DNA from: a virus
IMG/VR virus record: IMGVR_UViG_3300017963_000014
Span: 1 to 64,000 of that record
Length of the DNA stretch: 64,000 nucleotides
Strand: one strand, 5' to 3'
Made by a program: the position numbers and the translations under genes. The notes beneath the pieces are model-generated. The model did no database searches, was not told where the DNA came from, and was given only the letters and a program-made list of their open reading frames with translations. Positions within the stretch are counted from its first letter, which is position 1, and each line of letters opens with the position of its first letter. Below are positions 4,645 to 14,515 of the stretch, piece by piece.

Positions 4645-7512
4645 CTACCCCGCTCTATCCCGGATGCGCTTCGCCCGCGGAGCGCTACGGAGCTCCTCGA
4701 GGTCGGCCTCGAGGAGGATATCGCCCCTGTTCTCCCGGATCCGCGCGACCGCCTTCGAGACCCGCTTCGGGTCCGCGAGCCAGGTCCGGTAGCGGTCGAC
4801 GAGCTTCCGCCGACGAGCGCGACCCTTGATGAGCCACTTCGACCAGTCGATCACGGGGAAGCAGACCTCGAGGATCCGCTGCGAGGCGGGGAAGATCACG
4901 CGGTCCCAGTAGTACTCGGCGTCGTACGCGATCCCTCCGGCGGCGTCCTCGAAGTCACCCCGCGTTACGCCGGAGAGGTTCGGCTTCGTCCCGGTTACGA
5001 CGTACTCGACCTTCATTCCGACGTAGTACTCCCGCCCGGTCTCCCGAATCTCGGCCGCGAGCTTGACGTGCAGCGGCGTCGTCTTGTACCTCTCCGGGTC
5101 CTTCGATATCCCCTTCCCGATCGAGACCTCGTCGACGGAGAGCTCGCCCTCGGCGCAGCGTCGGAACTCCGGCTCGACGACCCCGCGCTCGATCTCGTCG
5201 CCCGAGAGTCCCTCCGTAAGGATCGCGTCCAGGACCCGCTGCTGGAGGCGGCGAGTCATCCCGGAGCAGTCGCTCCGCATCACCTCGAGGCCCTTAACCT
5301 CGACGTGATCCGTCTTCCCCCCCTTGTGGAGGAGCATCCTCCCGGCGTACCGCTTCTTAACGACGAAGAAGATCCGGTCGTAGACGTCCTCGAACTCGAG
5401 TTCGACCCGATTCCAGTCGAGGTTGCAGTTGAAGCCCCGGAGCTCCTCGAGGTAGCGCTCCTGGCAGTACGCGACGAAGCGGTTCCCGGCGTCGAGTATC
5501 TCCTCGATTCGGGCATCCTCGGAGGGCCAGGTCTTACCGGTCGGCGCGAGCTGAACGAAGACCGAGTCGGTGTCACCGTAGAGAACCGCGAACCCGTTCT
5601 CCTTCGCGTACCGCTCCGTTAGGCGGATGAAGTACCGCCCGCTGAGCGTGATCGCCTCCGCGAGCTCGGTGTCGTAGTACCGGGAGCGGGCGTTACCCAT
5701 GTCGCCGTAGAAGCTCAGCCCGAGGCGCTTGAACGAGTACGCGAGCCGGTAGTAGAGGAGGTAAAGGTCGTCCTGCGTCGTCCCGACCTCCTCGAGCCGC
5801 TTCCCCTGAAGGTCCGTGTACTTCTTCCGCCGCTCGAGCGTCCGGACGAACATCTGCGAGATATACCCCTCGCGGTCCCTCCGGAAGGTCGCGCCGCCCT
5901 TCTCGAGCGTCCCCCCGCCCTCGGTCTCGACCTCGACGAGGGGGCAGCGACAGAGCGAGTCCGGTCCGTTCTCCCGGAGGAACGCCTCGCGATCCTCGAG
6001 CTTGACGATCGTCTCGGGCGAGATGTTAAACGCTCGAACCATCGACGGGTAGAGACTCTTGAAATCTAAAGCCGCCACGTTCTCGTGCATCCCGACGACG
6101 GGGGGGAATACGTAGGCGCCCTCGTACTTCTCGGGCTCGGCGGAGGACCAGTACCGGGTCCGGAAGTGCTCCCCCTCCTTGTACCCCTTCTTTAGGAGGA
6201 GCTGGTCGATCTTCGTCGAGATGTTCCAGTCGTTCGCGAAGCCGTTCGCGATCCGGCAGAAGATCTGCTCGATCGAGACGAACCCCGTAAACTCCTCGAG
6301 CTTCCGGAGAATCCTCGCGTCGTACCGGTTATACTCCTCTAACAATTCGGGCTCGTACCGGTAGAGGTTGATAAACTTCGGTACCACCCCCGGGCGACGC
6401 TCACGGAAGGTCGTACGCCAGTCGATCTTCTGCATCTTCAGGACGCGCTCCCCGATCGAGTCGAGGGCGTAGGAGACGGCGTCCGCGCCCGCCCGCGTAT
6501 AATGCCGCTTGAAGACCGGTAGCGGGTCGGCGAAGAGGTGGTACCGCCAGTCGATCCAGATCCGGTGCTTCCGGAAGCGGTAGAAGATAACGGGAAAGTC
6601 GAATCCGAAACCGTTCCACGCGGCGAGGACGTCGTAGCGCTCGACGCACTCTCGCTTAAAGCGAAGGAGCATCTCCCGCTCGGCGGCGTCCGTCTCCTCC
6701 TCGAGTCGAAGGAACCCCGCGTCCGAGGGGTCGGAGTCGAAGCGGTCGCCCTCCCAGGCGATCGAGAGTATCCGGTTCTGCTCCTTCCTCTCGAACCCCC
6801 CGACGGTATCGTCGGTCTCGATGTCGAGAAACCCCATCCGGTACCGAGCCTGGATTTTTAAATCTACGTCCGTCAGGAACCGCTGCTTCGGCGTTAGGTC
6901 CGCCTCGAGAGGCTCAAGACCCTTCCGACGACACCACTCGACCGCCTCGTGAACAGGCTCCCACCGGTCGCGATCTCGGGGGAAGCGGAGCGCGCCCGGT
7001 CGCTCGCCGAGGAAGTAGGGGGTCGCCCAGCTAGAGGCGCGGTCGGGGTCCCCGACGTTCCGGAAGATCCGCTTGTGATCGATCTTCGGAACCCTCCGCG
7101 AGACGTAGACCCGTACGAACCTCTCGGGGTAGAGCGCGTCGGGCTCGACCCGCCGGGCGTGCCGACGGCAGAGCCAGTCCCAGCTCTCGCTCGGGATCCT
7201 CTCGAACTCCTCCCGCCGGAGGAGGAAGTACCACTCGAAGGGGTGAACCTCCTTAACCCGCCTCCCCGTCGCGGGGTCGCGGCGGAGGAGGACGACGTCC
7301 TCGCCCTCGGACCAGCCGTGGTAGTACTCCTTATCGGAGAAAAAGAACCGCTGGTCCTTCATCTCCTCGAAGTCGGCCGCGCTCTCGAGGTCGACCTCGT
7401 CGCGCGAGTCCCGAACCTCCTTCGAGTCGATCTCCTGTACGTAGAACTTCCGCTTCTCCGCGCCCGCGCCGAAGTCCCCTGCGATCCCCTGAGTGTCGGC
7501 GTCCCCGATCAG
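4645..7512 (-). CDS. polB: Family B DNA polymerase with 3'-5' exonuclease
   Basis: ExoI LDIETD, ExoII WNGFGFD, ExoIII YNRYD, motif A DFKSLYPS, motif B KRLGLSFYG, motif C YGDTDS, KKRY. Start uncertain: CTG 7512 or ATG 7362. Confidence 0.93.
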   Translation of the reverse strand: MIGDADTQGIAGDFGAGAEKRKFYVQEIDSKEVRDSRDEVDLESAADFEEMKDQRFFFSDKEYYHGWSEGEDVVLLRRDPATGRRVKEVHPFEWYFLLRREEFERIPSESWDWLCRRHARRVEPDALYPERFVRVYVSRRVPKIDHKRIFRNVGDPDRASSWATPYFLGERPGALRFPRDRDRWEPVHEAVEWCRRKGLEPLEADLTPKQRFLTDVDLKIQARYRMGFLDIETDDTVGGFERKEQNRILSIAWEGDRFDSDPSDAGFLRLEEETDAAEREMLLRFKRECVERYDVLAAWNGFGFDFPVIFYRFRKHRIWIDWRYHLFADPLPVFKRHYTRAGADAVSYALDSIGERVLKMQKIDWRTTFRERRPGVVPKFINLYRYEPELLEEYNRYDARILRKLEEFTGFVSIEQIFCRIANGFANDWNISTKIDQLLLKKGYKEGEHFRTRYWSSAEPEKYEGAYVFPPVVGMHENVAALDFKSLYPSMVRAFNISPETIVKLEDREAFLRENGPDSLCRCPLVEVETEGGGTLEKGGATFRRDREGYISQMFVRTLERRKKYTDLQGKRLEEVGTTQDDLYLLYYRLAYSFKRLGLSFYGDMGNARSRYYDTELAEAITLSGRYFIRLTERYAKENGFAVLYGDTDSVFVQLAPTGKTWPSEDARIEEILDAGNRFVAYCQERYLEELRGFNCNLDWNRVELEFEDVYDRIFFVVKKRYAGRMLLHKGGKTDHVEVKGLEVMRSDCSGMTRRLQQRVLDAILTEGLSGDEIERGVVEPEFRRCAEGELSVDEVSIGKGISKDPERYKTTPLHVKLAAEIRETGREYYVGMKVEYVVTGTKPNLSGVTRGDFEDAAGGIAYDAEYYWDRVIFPASQRILEVCFPVIDWSKWLIKGRARRRKLVDRYRTWLADPKRVSKAVARIRENRGDILLEADLEELRSAPRAKRIRDRAG

Positions 7513-8108
7513 GGACGAGCCGGTTCGGAACCCCTCCCCCGGGGGAGGAGCGCCCTCCGCCAGTTCTCGGCCTCCGTCTCGAGGCGGGTCCACTTCCGGA
7601 GGGTCGCGTTCGGGTGCCGGAGGAGCGTCGCCTCCGCCGTCGTCCCCTCGACCGTCCTCCGGAGCCCGAAGTCGCTTAACCCGAGGGCGACGCCCGCCGC
7701 CCTCCCGAGGACGAGGACCGTCCGGAGGTTCGGGAGTTCGAGTAGTTCCCTTCGAAGGTACCGTTCGGCGCACGTCTCAAGCTCCATTGGGGTCGGGGCG
7801 CGGTTCCCGGGGGTCGCGCACTTCAGGGCGTTCGTCGCGTAGCATCGCCCGAGGTCGAGACCCGAGCGGTCGGCGAGCTCGAGGAAGGCCCGGGTCGAAC
7901 CAGTTAAGAGTACGGGTTCCCCGCCCCGCCTCCGGGTCTCCGCGAGGAGGGGGAGGAGGAAGCAGCCCTCGACCCCGTCCACGGCCCGCCGCGAGGGGTT
8001 GATCCCGACGACCACGACCTCCGCGTCGTCGGGTCCGACGCCGACGCAGCGGGGGAGGCCGGAGGAACCGAGGGTACAGGCTCGGCAGGGGCGGGGGTCG
8101 CACCTCAT
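7509..8108 (-). CDS. Uracil-DNA glycosylase superfamily protein (Fe-S type)
   Basis: CRAC, G.GP.DA.VVVVGINP, YATNALKC, NRAPTPMELETC, LVLGRAA, HP. Confidence 0.85.
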   Translation of the reverse strand: MRCDPRPCRACTLGSSGLPRCVGVGPDDAEVVVVGINPSRRAVDGVEGCFLLPLLAETRRRGGEPVLLTGSTRAFLELADRSGLDLGRCYATNALKCATPGNRAPTPMELETCAERYLRRELLELPNLRTVLVLGRAAGVALGLSDFGLRRTVEGTTAEATLLRHPNATLRKWTRLETEAENWRRALLPRGRGSEPARP

Positions 8109-8653
8109 CGTCCCCCGGTCTCGAGGTGCAGGCTCCCGACGAGGAGCGAGAGCCGCGTCCCCCCGAACCGGTCGGGTAGCCCGGAGACCGCCGCACCGGC
8201 GGCTGCGAGGTTCCCGAGGAGGTCGAGCGGGAGGAGCGGGGCGAGGCGCTCCGAGCGCATGTACGCGACGACCTCGAGGTAGGGGCGCCGGAGGAGCTGG
8301 ATCGCGGTCGGGCAGGCGGGCGGGGGGAGGACCGATACGATCCGACGCGAGCTCGGCTCCTCCCTCCCGATACGCGCCCTGAGATTCCCCGCGTGCCGGA
8401 CGTAGTCCGAAGCCTCCGTCCGGAAGCGCTCCGCGAACCCGACCCCGGGCTCGAGGAGGTCGAGGGCACGTAGGATCGACGGGAGGTCCTCGAAGTCTAG
8501 GACCCGCGGGACGATGTACCTAAACTCGACCCCGCAGTTCTCGACGTAAGTACGCCCATCTACGCAGACGGACTTCCCCGAGGCCCGAAGCTCGACCTCC
8601 TTCCCCCCCGCGAGGACGAGGAGGTCGCGAGCGAGGTCGAAGTTAGTAATCAT
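8105..8653 (-). CDS. Minimal thymidylate-synthase (ThyA)-fold enzyme, predicted dCMP-modifying
   Basis: SSRR, PAC (catalytic Cys), Q, YMRS, LPLD and GSLH align by eye to ThyA DSRR/PC/Q/YQRS/LPFN/GDTH. Confidence 0.7.
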   Translation of the reverse strand: MITNFDLARDLLVLAGGKEVELRASGKSVCVDGRTYVENCGVEFRYIVPRVLDFEDLPSILRALDLLEPGVGFAERFRTEASDYVRHAGNLRARIGREEPSSRRIVSVLPPPACPTAIQLLRRPYLEVVAYMRSERLAPLLPLDLLGNLAAAGAAVSGLPDRFGGTRLSLLVGSLHLETGGR

Positions 8654-9657
8654 CGATTACGCCCCCGACCCTCGGCGAGCTTCTCGGCGTTCCCCCACTC
8701 GTGTGTCGCCGGGGGATCCCCCCGCTCGAGCGCCTTGAGTAACCCGAAGTATTCCCGACGAATCTCCCGCTCGAGGTCGACCTCGGGAAGATCGAGCCGC
8801 TCGCGAACCGCCGCGACCTCCTCGAGGTCGTGTACGAAGTCCCCGAGGTAATCGAGGTCGGGTCGGTAGACCGGGGAGATCGGGACGTCGGAGACGAAGC
8901 GGACGATATCGACGATCTGTCCGTAAGGAAGCCAGCGACCGGAGGCGGCGGGGACTCGACCGGAGAGCCGGACCTCGACCGCGCGGCGGACGAGGAGCGA
9001 TATCCAGGAGTGCGGCGTAACCTCCTTAACGTTCGCGGGGCTAAGGGTGATAAAGGGCTCCCGCTCGTAGAGTCCGGCGGCGCACTTCAGGCAGTCGGCG
9101 ACGCAGGAGTCGCCGTCGCGGATCCCGCCGAAGCCAAACGAGGGGTAGACCTGCAGGAGGAGCTCCGGTTCCCGGGCGAAGGCGTCGACCGCGAAGAGCC
9201 GCCCGGCGAGCTTCGTCAGACCGTAGCGAGTCCGGGGGTTCGCGGGGGTTCGAGACATCGAGATCGGCTTCGCGAGTCCGTAGTCGTCGGGCGAGAGCTC
9301 GGAGGCGGTCGCGAGGAAGACCGTGTAGATCCTCCGCTCCGCTAGAATCCGCGCGAGATCGCGGGGAGCGGCGGCGTTGCAACTCCAGGTCTCCTCCGCG
9401 AGAGTCTCGCAGCGGGTCGTCCCGACGATCGCCCCGGAGTGAACGAAGACGTCCGGCTTCGGGTCGAGGGCGGCTAGCCACTCGAGGTAGCCCTCGCAGC
9501 GGAAGTCCGGCTCGAACTCGCCGGTCGAGGGACTACGCCAGAGTGCGAATAGACGACGATCGGTCGGAGGCTCGAGGCGCTCCCAGCCGAGGGAGGAGAA
9601 CTCGCGGTCGATCTCGCTACCTAGCATCCCGCTCGTACCGGTTACGACGTACCTCAT
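8650..9657 (-). CDS. NAD(P)-dependent NDP-sugar epimerase/reductase (extended SDR, RmlD/GalE-like)
   Basis: TGTSGMLG, PDVFVHSGA, catalytic YGLTK. Confidence 0.85.
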   Translation of the reverse strand: MRYVVTGTSGMLGSEIDREFSSLGWERLEPPTDRRLFALWRSPSTGEFEPDFRCEGYLEWLAALDPKPDVFVHSGAIVGTTRCETLAEETWSCNAAAPRDLARILAERRIYTVFLATASELSPDDYGLAKPISMSRTPANPRTRYGLTKLAGRLFAVDAFAREPELLLQVYPSFGFGGIRDGDSCVADCLKCAAGLYEREPFITLSPANVKEVTPHSWISLLVRRAVEVRLSGRVPAASGRWLPYGQIVDIVRFVSDVPISPVYRPDLDYLGDFVHDLEEVAAVRERLDLPEVDLEREIRREYFGLLKALERGDPPATHEWGNAEKLAEGRGRNR

Positions 9658-10142
9658 CTTCGGAAACCCTCCTCCCCGTTAACGTAGACGACGTCGACTA
9701 CACCGCCGACCCAGGCGAAGACCTCGTCGAACGCGAGAAACTCGGCGTTAAGTCGCCCGTATTCGATAACCTCCCCCCGTCGCTCGATCCGGTTCCGCGC
9801 GGTCTCGAGCGAACTCGTAACGCGGTAGATCTGCTCGACCTCCTCGAGCTGCTTCGCCCGCGCGGCCGGGTTCGCTAGAAACGCCGGGATCGGTCGCTCG
9901 AAGAGCTTGGCGAAGACGAGGGTCGAGACCCAGCCGCGGTCGGCGACGAGGTCGACCCGGGGCGCGAGCTGCTCGAGTAACGAGGCGTGCGCTACGTACC
10001 CCCCGATCCGCGTCTCCTCCGAGTCGAGGCGGAGCCGAACCTTCGCGAGGTCCTCGACGTACGGGATCCCGAGCCGCCGCGCGAGGAGGCGGGCGAACGT
10101 CGTCTTTCCGACCCCGTTCGGACCCTCGACGAGGTGAAGCAT
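9654..10142 (-). CDS. dNMP kinase (thymidylate-kinase-like)
   Basis: P-loop EGPNGVGKTT, DRGWVS, RIERRG lid. Confidence 0.8.
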   Translation of the reverse strand: MLHLVEGPNGVGKTTFARLLARRLGIPYVEDLAKVRLRLDSEETRIGGYVAHASLLEQLAPRVDLVADRGWVSTLVFAKLFERPIPAFLANPAARAKQLEEVEQIYRVTSSLETARNRIERRGEVIEYGRLNAEFLAFDEVFAWVGGVVDVVYVNGEEGFRR

Positions 10143-11242
10143 CAGAGCGCCCTCGGCGCGACCAAGTTCCCGGAGGCTCCTCGGGTAAATCCCGCGAACT
10201 GAGCCTCGTACTCGTTCCGCTCTACGATACTCTCCGGGGTATACCCGAGGAGGAAGCGGTCGCGGGTCGTGAGTCGGAAGTCCTCGGGTCGGTCCTCGCC
10301 CGCGGTCGGGATCCGGATCCCGAGCTGCGCCGCGATCGTCTCGCGGTCGGAACAGCTCTCGTTGAACTCCGCGTACTCGTAGTCGAGCTCGGGGTTCCCC
10401 GGGGCGCTTCGGACCGGGTTTCGACCGCAGCTACGGAAGAGGCAGCCGAAGGCCTCCGAGATCGCGTGAGCCCGGTGGTAACAGCAGGCGCCTACGAAGT
10501 CGCAGCGTGGGCGGAGATACGCGGCGAGGAGCGGGAAGGCGTCGGACTTCGCGAGGCGGTCGCGGAGGAGCCAGGCGACGGCGACGGTGTCCTCCGCCTC
10601 GGAGAAGGTCATCCGACGGGCGCAGAGGTTCTTAAGCGCCGCGTAGTTAACGGAGCAGACGAAGCGGTGAACGACCGAGATCGGGAGCGCCGTCCTCGCC
10701 TCCTGCCAGCTCCCGCGCCCGATCTCGACGATCCTCCGGTACACGAACTTCGCCTCCCTCGCGAGGGCTACGAGGTCCGAGAGTTTACCCGCGCTCCGGA
10801 ACGTCGCCTCGTGGAAGCGAAACGCGATGTCTAGGTGGTTGTTATCGCGGGTCCCCATCGACGCCGCGACGAACCCGAGGCGGGCGCGAACGATCTGGTC
10901 GAACGCCCACCTCGAGAGATTCTCGACCGAGAACGTAAACTTCGGCGCCTCGAGCGCGAGCGGTAGCGCCTGCCCCGCGAGAACCGCCCGAACGACCGCC
11001 TCCCGCGACTCGGGCGCGGCGTCCTCCCAGCGGTCGAGGGAGGAGGAGCTCCAAGTCCCCCAGGTCGCGGTCGCCATGCAGTACATCGCCTTATACGGGT
11101 TCACCGGTCCGTCGAGGAGGTCGACGCGAATCCCCTCGACCCCGCGGTAGAAGCGGGTCTCGAACGGCGGGGCGGAGGAGGGGGCGGTCCCCATCAGTTC
11201 GCGGAGGCGGGCTAGTTCGGCGACGCGGTTCTCGGTACTCAT
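10142..11242 (-). CDS. Divergent ThyX-fold flavoenzyme
   Basis: LE..KFTFSVENLSR....QIVRAR...TR, EARTALP, VNYAALKNLCARR, Cys-rich tail. Start moved to ATG 11242 (ATGA overlap, GGAGG upstream). Confidence 0.8.
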   Translation of the reverse strand: MSTENRVAELARLRELMGTAPSSAPPFETRFYRGVEGIRVDLLDGPVNPYKAMYCMATATWGTWSSSSLDRWEDAAPESREAVVRAVLAGQALPLALEAPKFTFSVENLSRWAFDQIVRARLGFVAASMGTRDNNHLDIAFRFHEATFRSAGKLSDLVALAREAKFVYRRIVEIGRGSWQEARTALPISVVHRFVCSVNYAALKNLCARRMTFSEAEDTVAVAWLLRDRLAKSDAFPLLAAYLRPRCDFVGACCYHRAHAISEAFGCLFRSCGRNPVRSAPGNPELDYEYAEFNESCSDRETIAAQLGIRIPTAGEDRPEDFRLTTRDRFLLGYTPESIVERNEYEAQFAGFTRGASGNLVAPRAL

Positions 11243-12216
11243 CTCTTCTTCCTCCCTTCGGCTAACTCGAGGACCACCGCGAGCGCCTCGCGCGGCCCGG
11301 GGACGCGGACGGCGCCGACGAGCTCTACCCCGGCGTTCGCCTCGCCCTCTACGAGGACGACCGGGACGCCGGCGGCGAGGACCTCGCGCGCGACCGCGGG
11401 GTCGTCCTCGACGACCGCGACGGTCCCGGGGAAGTCCCGGAGGATCCGCCGGTGTTTCTCCCGGTCGAAGAGGACGGCGTCCGCGCGGAGGGCGGAGCGG
11501 TTGAGCCACTCGAGCGTATCGGCGTAGATCCGGGATACCCTCCAGTAGGGGCGAGCGGAGAGGACGACCGCGGTTAGACCGGCGGCGCGGAGCCCGTCTA
11601 AGAGCTCCCGCGCCCCCTCCCGAACCCCCTGCTCACGCTTCGCCCCGCTCTCGCGGTAGCGGTCCTTTAAGTTCTGGTACCCGAGCGCCCCGAGCTCCCG
11701 TCGGAGCGCGGCGGTCGAGGAGAACACGAACTCGCCGGGAACCTCCCAGTCCTCGACGTCGAGGCGGGCCCAGTCAAGGAAGCAGCGGGGGTAGTCGTTA
11801 AGGACGCCGTCTAGGTCGACGGCGACGACCGGGTCCTCGGGGGAGAGCGCGCGGAGGCGGGCCTCCATCGCGTAGCGGTACTCGACGACCTCGCTCTTCC
11901 GCTCGAACTCCTCGAGGATCTCCCCGGGGGAGAACCCCCAGACGTTCGCGAGCCCGAGGAGGAACTTAAGGCAGTCGACCCACTCCTCGAGGACGTTCCC
12001 GCGGACGACCGGAGTAGTCCGCCGGTGGTGCATCTTCCAGGAGGTCTCGCCGAGTAGCTCGTGAAGCTCCCCCTCGAGGTGTAGGACGAAGTCCTTCGAC
12101 CACGCGACGCGCTCCGCCGGGGATAGCCGCGCGATCTCGTAGCCGAGGTCCGAGAAGAACCGCTCGTTGAACCGCCTCTGCCGCGCGAGGATCCCCTCGA
12201 GGGAGGTAGCCTTCAC
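11239..12216 (-). CDS. Fusion of all-alpha dNTP pyrophosphatase (dimeric dUTPase/dCTPase-like) and HAD 5'-nucleotidase
   Basis: N-terminal EGELHELLGETSWK...LEEWVDCLKF; C-terminal VDLDGVL, LSAR, K, VEDD. Start moved to GTG 12216 (GTGA overlap). Confidence 0.8.
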   Translation of the reverse strand: MKATSLEGILARQRRFNERFFSDLGYEIARLSPAERVAWSKDFVLHLEGELHELLGETSWKMHHRRTTPVVRGNVLEEWVDCLKFLLGLANVWGFSPGEILEEFERKSEVVEYRYAMEARLRALSPEDPVVAVDLDGVLNDYPRCFLDWARLDVEDWEVPGEFVFSSTAALRRELGALGYQNLKDRYRESGAKREQGVREGARELLDGLRAAGLTAVVLSARPYWRVSRIYADTLEWLNRSALRADAVLFDREKHRRILRDFPGTVAVVEDDPAVAREVLAAGVPVVLVEGEANAGVELVGAVRVPGPREALAVVLELAEGRKKR

Positions 12217-13136
12217 GAGAGAACCCCCGCGACGTCGTGTAACCGTATCCGGTGGTCCCACCTAGCGAACCTCCCGACGTGCCGGACGAGCCCCGCGTAC
12301 TCGACCTCCGACCGCGGCTCCCCCCGAACCTGGAGGCGGAGCGGCCCGACGAAGTTCGTATCGAAGACGTCCTCGCAGAACCCCGGCGCGAGGACCTCCG
12401 CGGGGTCGCGGTTAAACTCGTAGACGAACCCCTCCCCCTCCGGGAGGAAGGTGACGCGATCGAAGGGGACGCGCGGGTTAGAGACGTAGAGGTAGCGGAG
12501 ACCGGCGGAGGCGGCGTCCCGGACGGGGTCGGCCCAGGCGCGGGCGGCCCCGAGGAACCACTTCGGGCCGGCGTCCCAGGTCCGCTCGAGCTTAGCCGGC
12601 GTTAGCGAGTCGAAGACGGGCGCGGGGAGCGTGTTGACGACCTCCGAGACCGGCAACTTACTAACCCCGTCGAGCTCGACGTCTACCCGTCGCTGAAGTA
12701 TCCAGGGCGCGATGGACGTGACGCGCGCACGGAGTAGCTCGGAACGGACCGTTAGCGCGCGCTCGAGCGCCCGCGTAAGCTCCTCTACCGAGGTACGGAA
12801 GCAGCGGAGGACGCCGGGGGTACCGGAGGAGACCGCGGATCTCGGCGCCCGGCTAGGGTCCCGTCCGCTCCGCCGGAGGTACTCCCGCCGCTCGAGCGGC
12901 GTCGGGTCGGAAGTAACACCGGAGTCGGTCCAGAACCCGAAGCGGACCTCCTCGACCTCGCTCGATAGCCCGAGGTCCTCGAGGACGCGCCCGAGCGCGA
13001 GGGACTCCCAGAGGTAGGAGGGGGCGAGTCGTCGGAGGAGGACGGAACCGCCGAAGATCTCGCCAACGCAGGGGACGCGGAGGAGGTACGCCGCGAGGAG
13101 GCCGACGGGTCCGGCGCCGAGGACGAGTCGACTCAT
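12213..13136 (-). CDS. FAD-dependent enzyme, UDP-galactopyranose mutase (Glf)/HemY-like
   Basis: GAGPVG dinucleotide fold, VVNTLP, PFDRVT, C-terminal GRFARW. Confidence 0.65.
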   Translation of the reverse strand: MSRLVLGAGPVGLLAAYLLRVPCVGEIFGGSVLLRRLAPSYLWESLALGRVLEDLGLSSEVEEVRFGFWTDSGVTSDPTPLERREYLRRSGRDPSRAPRSAVSSGTPGVLRCFRTSVEELTRALERALTVRSELLRARVTSIAPWILQRRVDVELDGVSKLPVSEVVNTLPAPVFDSLTPAKLERTWDAGPKWFLGAARAWADPVRDAASAGLRYLYVSNPRVPFDRVTFLPEGEGFVYEFNRDPAEVLAPGFCEDVFDTNFVGPLRLQVRGEPRSEVEYAGLVRHVGRFARWDHRIRLHDVAGVLS

Positions 13137-13885
13137 CGGCCGCCTCCACCGTAAGCCTCGAAGACCCTGCGCGCCAACTCGAGCGCGGTCTTCTGGAGGT
13201 CCCCGACGTACACCCAGTTCGTCCTCCCGAAGTGCCGCTTCCGTCGCTCCTCCCTATCTAGATGGAGGAGCCCGGGAACCTTCTCCCGCTCGAAGAAGTC
13301 GTCGTCGACGTTAAACTGAAGGTAGAGCCCGCGGAACTTAACCGCGAGCCGACGTACGCCCTCGGGGTCGAAGAACGCGACGTACCGCGGGTTCTCACGA
13401 GGCTTCCAGCCGTCGGGGAGATCCTCCTTAAGGCGCCGAATTATCTCCTTAGCCTCGATCCCCCCGAGGTCACCGTCGCGCTTCCGCTCGCGCCTCCTCC
13501 TCTCGGCCTCCTCGACCGCGGCCCGGAGCGAGTCCGCGTCCCTCCCCCGGGTCGAGACCCCGAGGTTCCGCGCGCGGGAGCGGAGCTCCTCGAGCGAGAG
13601 GGCGGGCTCGCCCTCGTCGTCGCCGAGGACGGCGCCGCAGGCCCAGCAGCGGGGGGAGGTAGCGTTTATCGGGGAGTTACAGCGCCCGCAGGAGTACGAG
13701 AGGTCCTCCCCCCGGGCGCGGAGCGCCTCGAGGACCTCCGCGTACGCGGACTTCAGCGTCTTCGCCCCGACCTCTAGCCCCTCGAACTCCCGGGCGTTCC
13801 GCCGGAGGGTCGGGAGGGCGAGGTACCTCCAGCGCGGGCCCTCGAGCTCCGGGGGGATCGACCCCGTTCCCTTCGCCTTCTTCAT
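13133..13885 (-). CDS. Zinc-ribbon hypothetical protein
   Basis: CGRC...CWAC; coiled-coil middle; alpha/beta C-terminal domain; GAGGAGG RBS. Confidence 0.65.
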   Translation of the reverse strand: MKKAKGTGSIPPELEGPRWRYLALPTLRRNAREFEGLEVGAKTLKSAYAEVLEALRARGEDLSYSCGRCNSPINATSPRCWACGAVLGDDEGEPALSLEELRSRARNLGVSTRGRDADSLRAAVEEAERRRRERKRDGDLGGIEAKEIIRRLKEDLPDGWKPRENPRYVAFFDPEGVRRLAVKFRGLYLQFNVDDDFFEREKVPGLLHLDREERRKRHFGRTNWVYVGDLQKTALELARRVFEAYGGGGR

Positions 13886-13897
13886 CTCGCCTCCTAG

Positions 13898-14515
13898 CTA
13901 GGCTCTATCTAGGAATGTACCCGGGGCGAACGCCCGGCTCGCTAGCTCCCCGAGGAGTAGCTCGACCGGGGGCGCCCGCTCCTCGTCGAGTAGCGCGCGC
14001 CGGAGGAGGACGAGCGCCTCGCCCCGGAGCCGCTCGCCCGCGCGCCGGAGCGCGAGGTCGAGGAGGAGCCGGTCCTCTACCCCGCGGTCGGCGCCGAGCC
14101 GGCGGTCGAGGTCCGCGGGGTCGTCGAGGCAGGGCTCGAGGGAGATCGACTTCGAGAACGTCCGCCGGACGGCGAGGCGGGCGGACTCCTCGCAGAAGTG
14201 CGGGAGCTCGACGAGCTCGACCGGTCCCCTTACGCGGTGCCGCTCCCTCCCGTGCCTCCGGATCGCCGCGCGCTCTAGGAAGGTCCGGCCACAGGGGCAG
14301 AGGTAGACGTAGCGGCGGGCGGCGCGCGAGAGCGCGAGTAGCCCCTCGTTAACGGCGTCGTCGACCTCCGCGAGGACGTTCGCCGAGCCGAAGGAGCGGC
14401 GGGCGGATACGCCGCGGGCGAGGAGCCAGGGTCGGTAGAGGGCGGCGACCGGCGAGAAGTTCCGGTCGGTCGGGTCGGAACGGTAGCGAAGCAGGGCGCG
14501 TTCGGGCTCCTCCAC
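13898..14515 (-). CDS. Sigma-70 region-2-like protein with inserted C2H2 zinc finger
   Basis: VDDAVNEGLLALSRAARRY resembles region 2.2; followed by YLCPCGRTF....IRRHGRERH. Confidence 0.55.
   Translation of the reverse strand: MEEPERALLRYRSDPTDRNFSPVAALYRPWLLARGVSARRSFGSANVLAEVDDAVNEGLLALSRAARRYVYLCPCGRTFLERAAIRRHGRERHRVRGPVELVELPHFCEESARLAVRRTFSKSISLEPCLDDPADLDRRLGADRGVEDRLLLDLALRRAGERLRGEALVLLRRALLDEERAPPVELLLGELASRAFAPGTFLDRA

What the first reader, a model, noticed from the sequence alone, without database searches (positions are those of the whole stretch)
8105..8653. 182-aa ThyA-fold enzyme with the dCMP determinant but no folate site
Seen: RSERLAPLLPLD is in exact register with E. coli ThyA RSCDVFLGLPFN (166-177): N177>D, D169>R, plus H147>P and Y209>E; the catalytic Cys and phosphate-binding RR/RS are kept. 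Established: Asp at this position confers dCMP specificity (T4 dCMP hydroxymethylase D179), and D169 contacts the folate. Inference: Cys-activated C5 chemistry on a cytosine nucleotide with a non-folate co-substrate, possibly an NDP-sugar, since it is coupled to the SDR gene.
Basis: partly seen in the sequence, partly recalled or inferred. Interest (0 to 1): 0.75.

Follow-up and report, generated by a model that had tools for sequence, protein, structure and literature searches.

The report
Mini thymidylate-synthase-like phage dCMP enzyme
A complete 102-kb uncultured phage genome encodes a 182-residue, stripped-down relative of thymidylate synthase that keeps the machinery to grip and attack a cytosine nucleotide but has lost the usual folate-binding parts, so it probably makes an altered cytosine for the phage DNA by chemistry still unknown.

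Summary
ORF 8105-8653 (minus strand, 182 aa) has no Pfam, NCBIfam or PHROG match. Its AlphaFold model (pLDDT 94) nevertheless matches only thymidylate synthases, T4 dCMP hydroxymethylase, MilA and the flavin-dependent dCMP hydroxylase AfhB (Z about 12). All of these are invariant in the nine known family members.

The folate-contacting D169 position is R, C or L. About 40 residues around W80/W83 and the last 50 residues are missing. Loss of the folate site is therefore likely but untested.

The proposed link to the SDR and an NDP-sugar is not supported. Nearly all genes in this operon overlap. A related phage keeps the SDR but lacks the mini-TS. No glycosyltransferase was detected.

The gene lies in a phage nucleotide module with an NTP pyrophosphatase-HAD fusion, a ThyX-like protein, a dNMP kinase, a UDG-like protein and PolB. 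The best reading is pre-replicative C5 modification of dCMP. Flavin/O2 hydroxylation is the only known non-folate precedent, but its D169N signature is absent here.

This scan has already found other mini-TS enzymes in other phages. I class this one as a new variant of a known kind.

The parts
8105..8653 (-). Mini-TS (P0001, 182 aa): minimal thymidylate-synthase-fold protein with a cytosine-type active site
   Evidence: AF2 pLDDT 94. Foldseek and VIA match TS, dCH, MilA and AfhB. hhalign is in register. Invariant residues: R103, R104, C114, Q119, R133, S134, D144, S174, H176.
8650..9657 (-). RmlD-like extended SDR (335 aa) with GxxGxxG and YxxxK kept. Neighbour; a functional link to the mini-TS is not shown.
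   Evidence: Pfam PF01370 at 3e-10 and PF04321 at 3e-7. PDB 2ggs at 2.7e-5. Y145 and K149 are invariant in 11 relatives. Present without the mini-TS in L012.
9654..10142 (-). P-loop dNMP kinase (162 aa). Candidate kinase for the modified dNMP.
   Evidence: phrog_761 thymidylate kinase at 2.5e-10. Pfam AAA_33, with dNK, Thymidylate_kin and Cytidylate_kin at weak E-values.
10142..11242 (-). Divergent ThyX-like flavoprotein. The real start is probably the Met near 11242, not the longest ORF start at 11509.
   Evidence: Pfam Thy1 at 8e-11. The sequence upstream of that Met is an Arg-rich read-through overlapping the previous gene. L002 and L012 homologues align from residue 1 of the short form.
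11239..12261 (-). Fusion of an all-alpha NTP pyrophosphatase (dUTPase_2/MazG type) with a HAD-type phosphatase carrying a DxDGV motif
   Evidence: Pfam dUTPase_2 at 4.6e-6. phrog_173 and phrog_415. The motif is read.
12213..13136 (-). 307-aa FAD-type Rossmann protein of the amine-oxidase / UGM / renalase / PPO superfamily
   Evidence: GxGxxG is invariant. AF2 pLDDT 90. Foldseek: putrescine oxidase 2.5e-11, UGM 6.5e-11, renalase 8e-11.
7509..8108 (-). UDG-superfamily protein (199 aa) with a GINPS motif. Present or absent together with the mini-TS in the three related phages.
   Evidence: Pfam UDG at 2.7e-13 and TIGR00758 at 1.9e-13. Present in L002 and absent from L012.
4645..7773 (-). Family B DNA polymerase. 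The true start is probably downstream of 7773.
   Evidence: Pfam DNA_pol_B at 4e-46. The L012 PolB aligns only from residue 81.

Best explanation
P0001 is a very divergent, minimal member of the thymidylate synthase / dCMP hydroxymethylase superfamily. It is encoded in the replication and nucleotide-metabolism operon of a complete 101.8-kb phage genome from sediment and seawater metagenomes.

Shown:
- It has the TS fold.
- It keeps the two Arg of the RR pair (contributed across the dimer in TS), the R-S phosphate clamp, the nucleophilic Cys, the Gln five residues after it, and the His of the GSLH strand.
- It has an invariant Asp where dUMP enzymes have Asn.

Inferred mechanism:
- It works as a homodimer that binds dCMP by its 5'-phosphate.
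- Asp144 reads N3 and N4 of cytosine.
- Cys114 adds to C6, making C5 nucleophilic.
- A C5-substituted dCMP is released, phosphorylated by the phage dNMP kinase and host NDP kinase, and built into DNA by the phage PolB.
- The NTP-pyrophosphatase/HAD fusion and the dCMP deaminase reshape the canonical nucleotide pools.

The group added at C5 is not known. Canonical folate determinants are missing, so a non-folate donor is more likely than CH2-THF.

My split of the probability:
- Flavin/O2 hydroxylation like the 5hodCMP synthases: about 0.3.
- Folate one-carbon transfer through a remodelled site: about 0.2.
- Another electrophile: about 0.25.
- No C5 substitution, or inactive: about 0.25.
For: Fold.

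Register and invariant catalytic residues.

Asp at the N177 position agrees with the reference enzymes aligned here. T4 gp42, RB69 gp48 and a 'pyrimidine hmase' have Asp; E. coli ThyA and phage Lydia dUMP hydroxymethylase have Asn. PMC13326640 gives the rule (section 24).

Folate determinants: D169 is replaced by R, C or L, and the chain ends at about ThyA residue 214.

Genome context:
- No PF00303 gene elsewhere in the genome.
- Neighbours are a dNMP kinase, an NTP-PPase/HAD fusion, a ThyX-like protein, a UDG-like protein and PolB.
- dCMP deaminase and a class II RNR lie elsewhere in the genome.
- The same gene order is found in a second complete phage of 105.9 kb, where the mini-TS is 46% identical.

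Precedent for non-folate chemistry on this fold: PDB 9iqu and 9iqc are the top or tied structural matches, and PMC13326640 describes the chemistry.
Against: - No biochemical data exist. No ligand could be modelled and no coordinates inspected, so 'no folate site' rests on alignment and chain length only.
- The two published signatures of the hydroxylating and hydroxymethylating branches are absent. The D169 position is never Asn, and the L143 position is Pro, Ala or Ser, never Asp or Glu.
- Y209, which contacts the 3'-OH in TS, is not conserved (E, D, P, K, A or R). Ribo versus deoxyribo specificity is therefore open.
- The arginine matching R21 is conserved in only 7 of 9 members.
- A third related phage has the whole module without the mini-TS, so the enzyme is an accessory part, not the core of the pathway.
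- Structural Z-scores to AfhB, MilA and ThyA are tied (12.5, 12.4, 12.0) and cannot pick a branch.
Confidence: 0.6

Rival explanations
1. It is still a folate-dependent dCMP methylase or hydroxymethylase. The pterin site is remodelled, with E80 and aromatic positions 77 and 84 taking the place of E58, W80 and W83, or it is completed by a partner protein.
For: T4 dCMP hydroxymethylase and RB69 gp48 also lack most of the ThyA C-terminus. An invariant Glu and two always-aromatic positions lie on the long helix 73-97. The ESM Atlas structure search lists TS domains fused to separate pterin-binding domains, so pterin binding can be outsourced.
Against: The D169 position, kept as Asp in the folate-using T4 gp42 and in ThyA, is R, C or L and is not conserved. 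The chain is 60 residues shorter than the shortest folate-using enzyme aligned here. No DHFR or other folate gene was seen among the genes scanned.
Confidence: 0.2
2. One reading: the C5 carbanion attacks a sugar-derived electrophile (an NDP-sugar or keto-sugar) made by the adjacent RmlD-like SDR.
For: The SDR is RmlD-like with its catalytic YxxxK kept. A UGM-superfamily flavoprotein lies in the same operon. SDR-then-mini-TS adjacency recurs in a second phage.
Against: Gene overlap is generic in this operon. The SDR and the flavoprotein persist in phage L012, which lacks the mini-TS. No such chemistry is known for this fold. The flavoprotein cannot be told apart from amine oxidases or renalase.
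Confidence: 0.05
3. It does not install a C5 substituent. Instead it uses Cys addition at C6 for another outcome, such as hydrolytic deamination or C5 exchange or dehalogenation, or it acts on CMP rather than dCMP, or it serves as a nucleotide-binding, non-catalytic subunit.
For: Y209 and H147 equivalents are not conserved. The enzyme is dispensable in a related phage. It co-varies with a MUG-like UDG rather than with the kinase.
Against: Invariance of Cys, Gln, RR, RS, Asp and His across members only 32-45% identical to the query argues for retained covalent catalysis. The phage already has a zinc dCMP deaminase.
Confidence: 0.15

Closest known systems
Flavin/O2-dependent 5-hydroxy-dCMP synthases (HY126 AfhB, PDB 9iqu/9iqc; RB69 gp48; DLP3 gp80; PMC13326640)
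   Same: TS fold, best though tied structural match (Z 12.5, rmsd 2.9 A, 158 residues). Catalytic Cys. Asp at the N177 position. Shortened C-terminus. Phage-encoded and placed next to a dNMP kinase and the DNA polymerase. A non-folate cofactor is plausible.
   Different: These enzymes are 217-240 aa. Their diagnostic D169N is absent (R, C or L here). L143 is Pro, Ala or Ser, not Glu. No arabinose or UDP-sugar genes or glycosyltransferases were found. No significant sequence match.
T4 gp42 dCMP hydroxymethylase (PDB 1b49/1b5d)
   Same: Asp at the specificity position. The GSLHV strand motif is identical. In-register alignment of Cys, Gln, RS and Asp. Pre-replicative role next to the polymerase gene.
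   Different: 246 aa and folate-dependent, with D171 kept and an acidic residue at the L143 position. The match is not significant by sequence (E 1.7).
MilA CMP hydroxymethylase (PDB 5b6d/5b6e/5jnh)
   Same: Tied structural match (Z 12.4, 156 residues, 18% identity). Cytosine-nucleotide specificity through Asp.
   Different: 318 aa. Acts on the ribonucleotide in antibiotic biosynthesis and uses folate.
ThyA thymidylate synthase (E. coli, L. casei)
   Same: Core fold and the positions of R126/R127, C146, Q151, R166/S167 and H207.
   Different: N177>D, D169>R/C/L, H147>P/R, and Y209 not kept. About 40 residues around W80/W83 and residues 215-264 are missing. No PF00303 match for any family member.
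Mini-TS domains found earlier in this scan in marine phages (150-158 aa, free-standing or fused to a dNMP kinase; e1-5355071, e1-5995264 and others)
   Same: Same theme: a stripped-down TS fold with the cytosine-type Asp, next to a kinase and the polymerase gene.
   Different: No shared sequence words with them. This family is high-GC and free-standing. Only eight other members turned up among 1.84 billion cluster representatives (15 billion proteins), and it lacks the flavin-branch signature that at least one of those reports claims.

Membership tests
Thymidylate synthase / dCMP hydroxymethylase superfamily | TS alpha/beta fold with the central sheet | tested here: met
   AF2 pLDDT 94. All 50 listed Foldseek hits (382 at E <= 0.001) are TS-family, best E 2e-6. 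VIA Z 12.5-10.8 over 150-160 residues. BFVD and ESM Atlas agree.
Thymidylate synthase / dCMP hydroxymethylase superfamily | Nucleophilic Cys after Pro/Ala, with Gln five residues later | tested here: met
   C114 and Q119 are invariant and in register with C146 and Q151.
Thymidylate synthase / dCMP hydroxymethylase superfamily | Phosphate-binding arginines (R21, R126', R127', R166) and S167 | tested here: met
   R103, R104, R133 and S134 are invariant. The R21 candidate, R23, is kept in 7 of 9 members.
Thymidylate synthase / dCMP hydroxymethylase superfamily | Match to Pfam PF00303 | tested here: not met
   No match for any of the 9 members even at E 10. No PF00303 match in the genome. Homology is seen only by profile-profile comparison (82%, E 1e-5) and by structure.
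Folate-dependent TS-type enzymes (ThyA, T4 gp42, MilA) | Asp at the D169 position contacting the pterin, plus the W80/W83 helix and a closing C-terminus | tested here: not met
   Position 136 is R, C or L. The chain ends at about ThyA residue 214 and has only two helices between strand 2 and the RR strand. Folate binding itself was not testable.
5-hydroxy-dCMP synthases (flavin branch) | D169N diagnostic residue (PMC13326640, section 28) | tested here: not met
   No member has Asn at position 136.
5-hydroxy-dCMP synthases (flavin branch) | N177D and an acidic residue at L143 | tested here: inconclusive
   D144 is invariant, so N177D is met. Position 111 is Pro, Ala or Ser, so the acidic residue is not met.
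5-hydroxy-dCMP synthases (flavin branch) | Bound flavin and O2-derived hydroxyl | not testable with these tools
   Needs purified protein and 18O2 labelling.

The most novel reading that the evidence does not exclude
This Pfam-invisible 182-aa family is a third cofactor class of the TS superfamily, neither folate- nor AfhB-type flavin-dependent. It would install a so far undescribed C5 group on dCMP. Together with the conserved ThyX-like, FAD-oxidase-like, RmlD-like and NTP-PPase/HAD genes, it would belong to a new pre-replicative pyrimidine hypermodification pathway in high-GC phages.
Probability: 0.2. Interest if true: 0.8.

Novelty: new variant of a known kind. Interest (0 to 1): 0.55.

Why it matters
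Phage TS homologues are the entry points to modified pyrimidines in DNA, which block restriction enzymes and CRISPR nucleases. In 2025-2026 the fold was shown to have switched once from folate to flavin.

This family is smaller than any characterised TS-type enzyme and cannot be found by standard annotation. It carries the cytosine determinant but neither the folate Asp nor the flavin-branch Asn. It is therefore a compact test case for what the minimal catalytic core of this fold is, and for whether further cofactor switches exist.

It also marks an operon of unassigned nucleotide enzymes that may encode a new DNA modification.

Tried and rejected
- **Family libraries.** Pfam, NCBIfam and PHROGs gave no hit for P0001. 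Pfam on all nine members at E 10 gave nothing relevant.
- **PDB by sequence.** phmmer of P0001 against the PDB gave only chance hits.
- **Word-indexed protein search.** It found only the protein itself.
- **Phage GenBank collection.** No DNA or protein match.
- **The look-up of encoding contigs.** The contigs of seven of the eight relatives could therefore not be read.
- **The search for related loci.** The whole family alignment had no usable conserved stretch. The close subgroup found one viral locus and nothing in metagenome contigs. The distant subgroup found nothing in viral or genome contigs.
- **One spurious hit set aside.** P0010 is a 973-aa repeat protein at E 7e-4.
- **Complex prediction.** Two mini-TS copies plus the SDR gave no verdict, with scores 0.00, 0.44 and 0.00. 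This is not evidence either way.
- **Sequencing runs.** No RNA holder was listed. The DNA is held by one sediment and one seawater metagenome, which may be the sources.
- **Glycosyltransferase families.** PF00535, PF00534 and PF09198 gave no match in the genome. A divergent enzyme among the many unassigned ORFs is not excluded.
- **L012 227-aa protein.** I considered that the 227-aa protein following the SDR in L012 might be another TS variant. It is ParB-like, with a DGFHR motif and no similarity to the family.
- **Choosing a TS branch by structure.** The structural scores are tied.
- **He et al. paper on AfhB.** It is not in the library.

Full report
**What the window is.** The window is the first 64 kb of a complete IMG/VR virus record of 101,796 bp with a 123-bp direct terminal repeat and 69.5% GC. 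Almost all genes lie on the minus strand. The genome shows head, tail and terminase genes and a replication block with DnaB, primase, a UvrD-like helicase, RecA-like protein, PolB, 5'-3' exonuclease and a class II RNR. The DNA is held by one sediment and one seawater metagenome. The host is unknown.

**The observation.** ORF 8105-8653 (minus strand) encodes 182 aa (P0001) with strong third-position GC (0.87). Its start overlaps the stop of the upstream gene as ATGA, and its stop overlaps the start of the next gene.

| E. coli ThyA | P0001 |
|---|---|
| R126/R127 | R103/R104 |
| C146 | C114 |
| H147 | P115 |
| Q151 | Q119 |
| R166/S167 | R133/S134 |
| D169 | R136 |
| N177 | D144 |
| H207 | H176 |
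| Y209 | E178 |

The spaced motif occurs in 1 of 200,000 shuffles of the protein. It occurs in no other ORF of 100 aa or more in the genome.

**Is it really a TS fold?**
- Family libraries see nothing.
- An exhaustive HMMER search of 1.84 billion cluster representatives found eight true relatives. They are 177-232 aa and 32-45% identical to P0001, all metagenomic singletons, some on contigs of 59-106 kb.
- In their alignment the invariant columns are G26, G33, E38, G41, E80, L91, R103, R104, C114, Q119, V128, R133, S134, P139, L141, D144, S174 and H176. These include the TS catalytic and phosphate-binding set plus the specificity position.
- AlphaFold2 with this alignment gives pLDDT 94 and pTM 0.89.
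- Foldseek against the PDB gives 382 matches at E <= 0.001. The 50 listed are all thymidylate synthases, DHFR-TS, MilA or T4 dCMP hydroxymethylase.
- VIA-align gives Z 12.5 (rmsd 2.9 A, 158 residues) to 9iqu, the dCMP hydroxylase AfhB of phage HY126. It gives 12.4 to MilA and 12.0 to a bacterial ThyA, which are ties.
- BFVD and the ESM Atlas agree.
- Profile-profile comparison with a small alignment of ThyA, T4 gp42, RB69 gp48 and two phage hydroxymethylases gives 82% probability and E 1e-5, in the same register. A global run aligns residues 2-182 with ThyA 1-213.
- The sub-threshold PDB profile hit to T4 dCMP hydroxymethylase aligns Cys, Gln, RS, Asp and an identical GSLHV.

The fold and the homology are therefore established as far as computation can do so.

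**The folate site.**
- The D169 position is R in five members, C in two and L in two. The folate-using references aligned here keep Asp, and RB69 gp48 has Asn.
- The model has only two helices between the second strand and the RR strand, and it ends a few residues after the GSLH strand.
- The ThyA segment that carries I79, W80 and W83, and the last 50 residues that close over the cofactor, therefore have no counterpart.
- The role of these residues in folate binding is established knowledge of ThyA. Their absence here is read from alignments, not from a ligand test.
- A caution: E80 is invariant and positions 77 and 84 are always aromatic. Some cofactor pocket may therefore remain. I could not inspect coordinates.

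**Surroundings.** Upstream to downstream on the minus strand the operon reads as follows.

| Coordinates | Gene product | Calls |
|---|---|---|
| 13898-14515, 13133-13885 | Two unknowns | 4, 16 |
| 12213-13136 | 307-aa FAD-type protein; the model matches putrescine oxidase, UGM, renalase and PPO equally | 82, 87, 90 |
| 11239-12261 | dUTPase_2/MazG-type pyrophosphatase fused to a HAD phosphatase | 4, 6, 55 |
| 10142-11242 | Divergent ThyX-like protein | 4, 55 |
| 9654-10142 | dNMP kinase | 4, 6 |
| 8650-9657 | RmlD-like SDR with YxxxK kept | 4, 53, 70 |
| 8105-8653 | Mini-TS | see above |
| 7509-8108 | UDG-superfamily protein with a GINPS motif | 4, 5, 55 |
| 4645-7773 | PolB | 4 |

Elsewhere the genome encodes a zinc dCMP deaminase, a class II RNR and an N6/N4 DNA methylase. 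There is no PF00303 gene. There is no match to glycosyltransferase families 1 or 2 or to the T4 glucosyltransferase.

**Related phages.**
- A second complete phage (105,878 bp; L002/L013) has the same order, including the mini-TS (46% identity) and the UDG-like gene.
- A third phage (75 kb, 74% complete; L012, with L011 a fragment of a near-identical one) has the module from the unknowns through the SDR, and PolB. Between them, instead of the mini-TS and UDG-like genes, it has a ParB-like protein, a 138-aa protein and a PAPS-reductase/DUF3440 protein.
- The mini-TS and the UDG-like gene thus come and go together as an accessory pair, and the SDR does not depend on the mini-TS.

**Mechanism.**
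- Shown: the fold, the conserved residues, and the placement among nucleotide enzymes.
- Inferred: a dimer binds dCMP, Asp144 selects cytosine, Cys114 attacks C6, C5 acquires a substituent, and the neighbouring kinase and PolB carry the product into DNA.
- The only published non-folate chemistry for this fold is flavin/O2 hydroxylation to 5-hydroxy-dCMP (PMC13326640, sections 24 and 28; PDB 9iqu and 9iqc).
- That family's diagnostic D169N and its acidic L143 position are not present here. I therefore give that specific reading about 0.3, a remodelled folate site about 0.2, another electrophile about 0.25, and a non-substituting or inactive role about 0.25.

**Comparison and novelty.**
- It works like the phage dCMP-modifying TS homologues. 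It is a structural member of the superfamily but fails the sequence-family test (PF00303) and the signature tests of both the folate and the flavin branches.
- Earlier reports of this scan describe other stripped-down TS domains with the cytosine Asp in marine phages, and the ESM Atlas lists a 183-aa viral cluster of 448 members nearby. The theme is therefore not new.
- This particular family, its signature and its operon are new. I class it as a new variant of a known kind, with interest 0.55.

Noticed in passing
whole genome (window 1-64000 and beyond): There is an extreme, uniform depletion of the CA/TG dinucleotide. The odds ratio is 0.31 genome-wide and 0.21-0.36 in every 10-kb window. 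GA/TC is 1.69, CG is 1.35 and TA is 0.99. Codon counts: CTG 111 against CTC 752, and GTG 65 against GTC 647. Met and His are each 0.8% of codons. At codon boundaries, C|A occurs 287 times against 1468 for G|A. The related phage L002, which has the same mini-TS module, shows CA/TG 0.76 and TA 0.46, so the depletion is specific to this phage. It is unexplained.
   Followed up: partly
window 7509-8108 (-): The UDG-superfamily protein matches family 4 models but has a MUG/TDG-like GINPS motif. It is present or absent together with the mini-TS across three related phages.
   Followed up: partly
window 7509-7773: The longest PolB ORF overlaps the 3' end of the UDG-like gene by 265 nt. PolB of phage L012 aligns only from residue 81, and no start codon follows the UDG stop. 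The real PolB start is therefore probably inside the overlap, some 60-80 codons downstream of 7773.
   Followed up: partly
window 11239-12261 (-): This is a fusion of a dUTPase_2/MazG-type NTP pyrophosphatase with a HAD phosphatase (DLDGV motif). It could take a dNTP down to the nucleoside and may serve to exclude a canonical nucleotide.
   Followed up: no
window 12213-13136 (-): This 307-aa protein has no Pfam hit but folds confidently (pLDDT 90) as an FAD amine-oxidase / UGM / renalase-type protein. About 20 relatives are known, all metagenomic. It is conserved in all three related phages.
   Followed up: partly
window 10142-11509 (-): The longest ORF of the ThyX-like gene begins with about 90 Arg/Pro/Gly-rich residues that overlap the previous gene. 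The conserved protein starts at the Met near 11242. It scores far below the ThyX equivalog cut-off (26.6 against 87.9 bits).
   Followed up: no
L012:11005-13310: In the related 75-kb phage, the slot of the mini-TS and UDG-like genes holds a ParB-like protein (DGFHR motif), a 138-aa protein and a PAPS-reductase/DUF3440 protein. This is an IbrB/IbrA-like pair.
   Followed up: partly
genome 87875-88669, 89540-92284 and 98588-99637 (L005): A zinc dCMP deaminase, a class II ribonucleotide reductase with a TSCPD domain, and an N6/N4 DNA methyltransferase.
   Followed up: no
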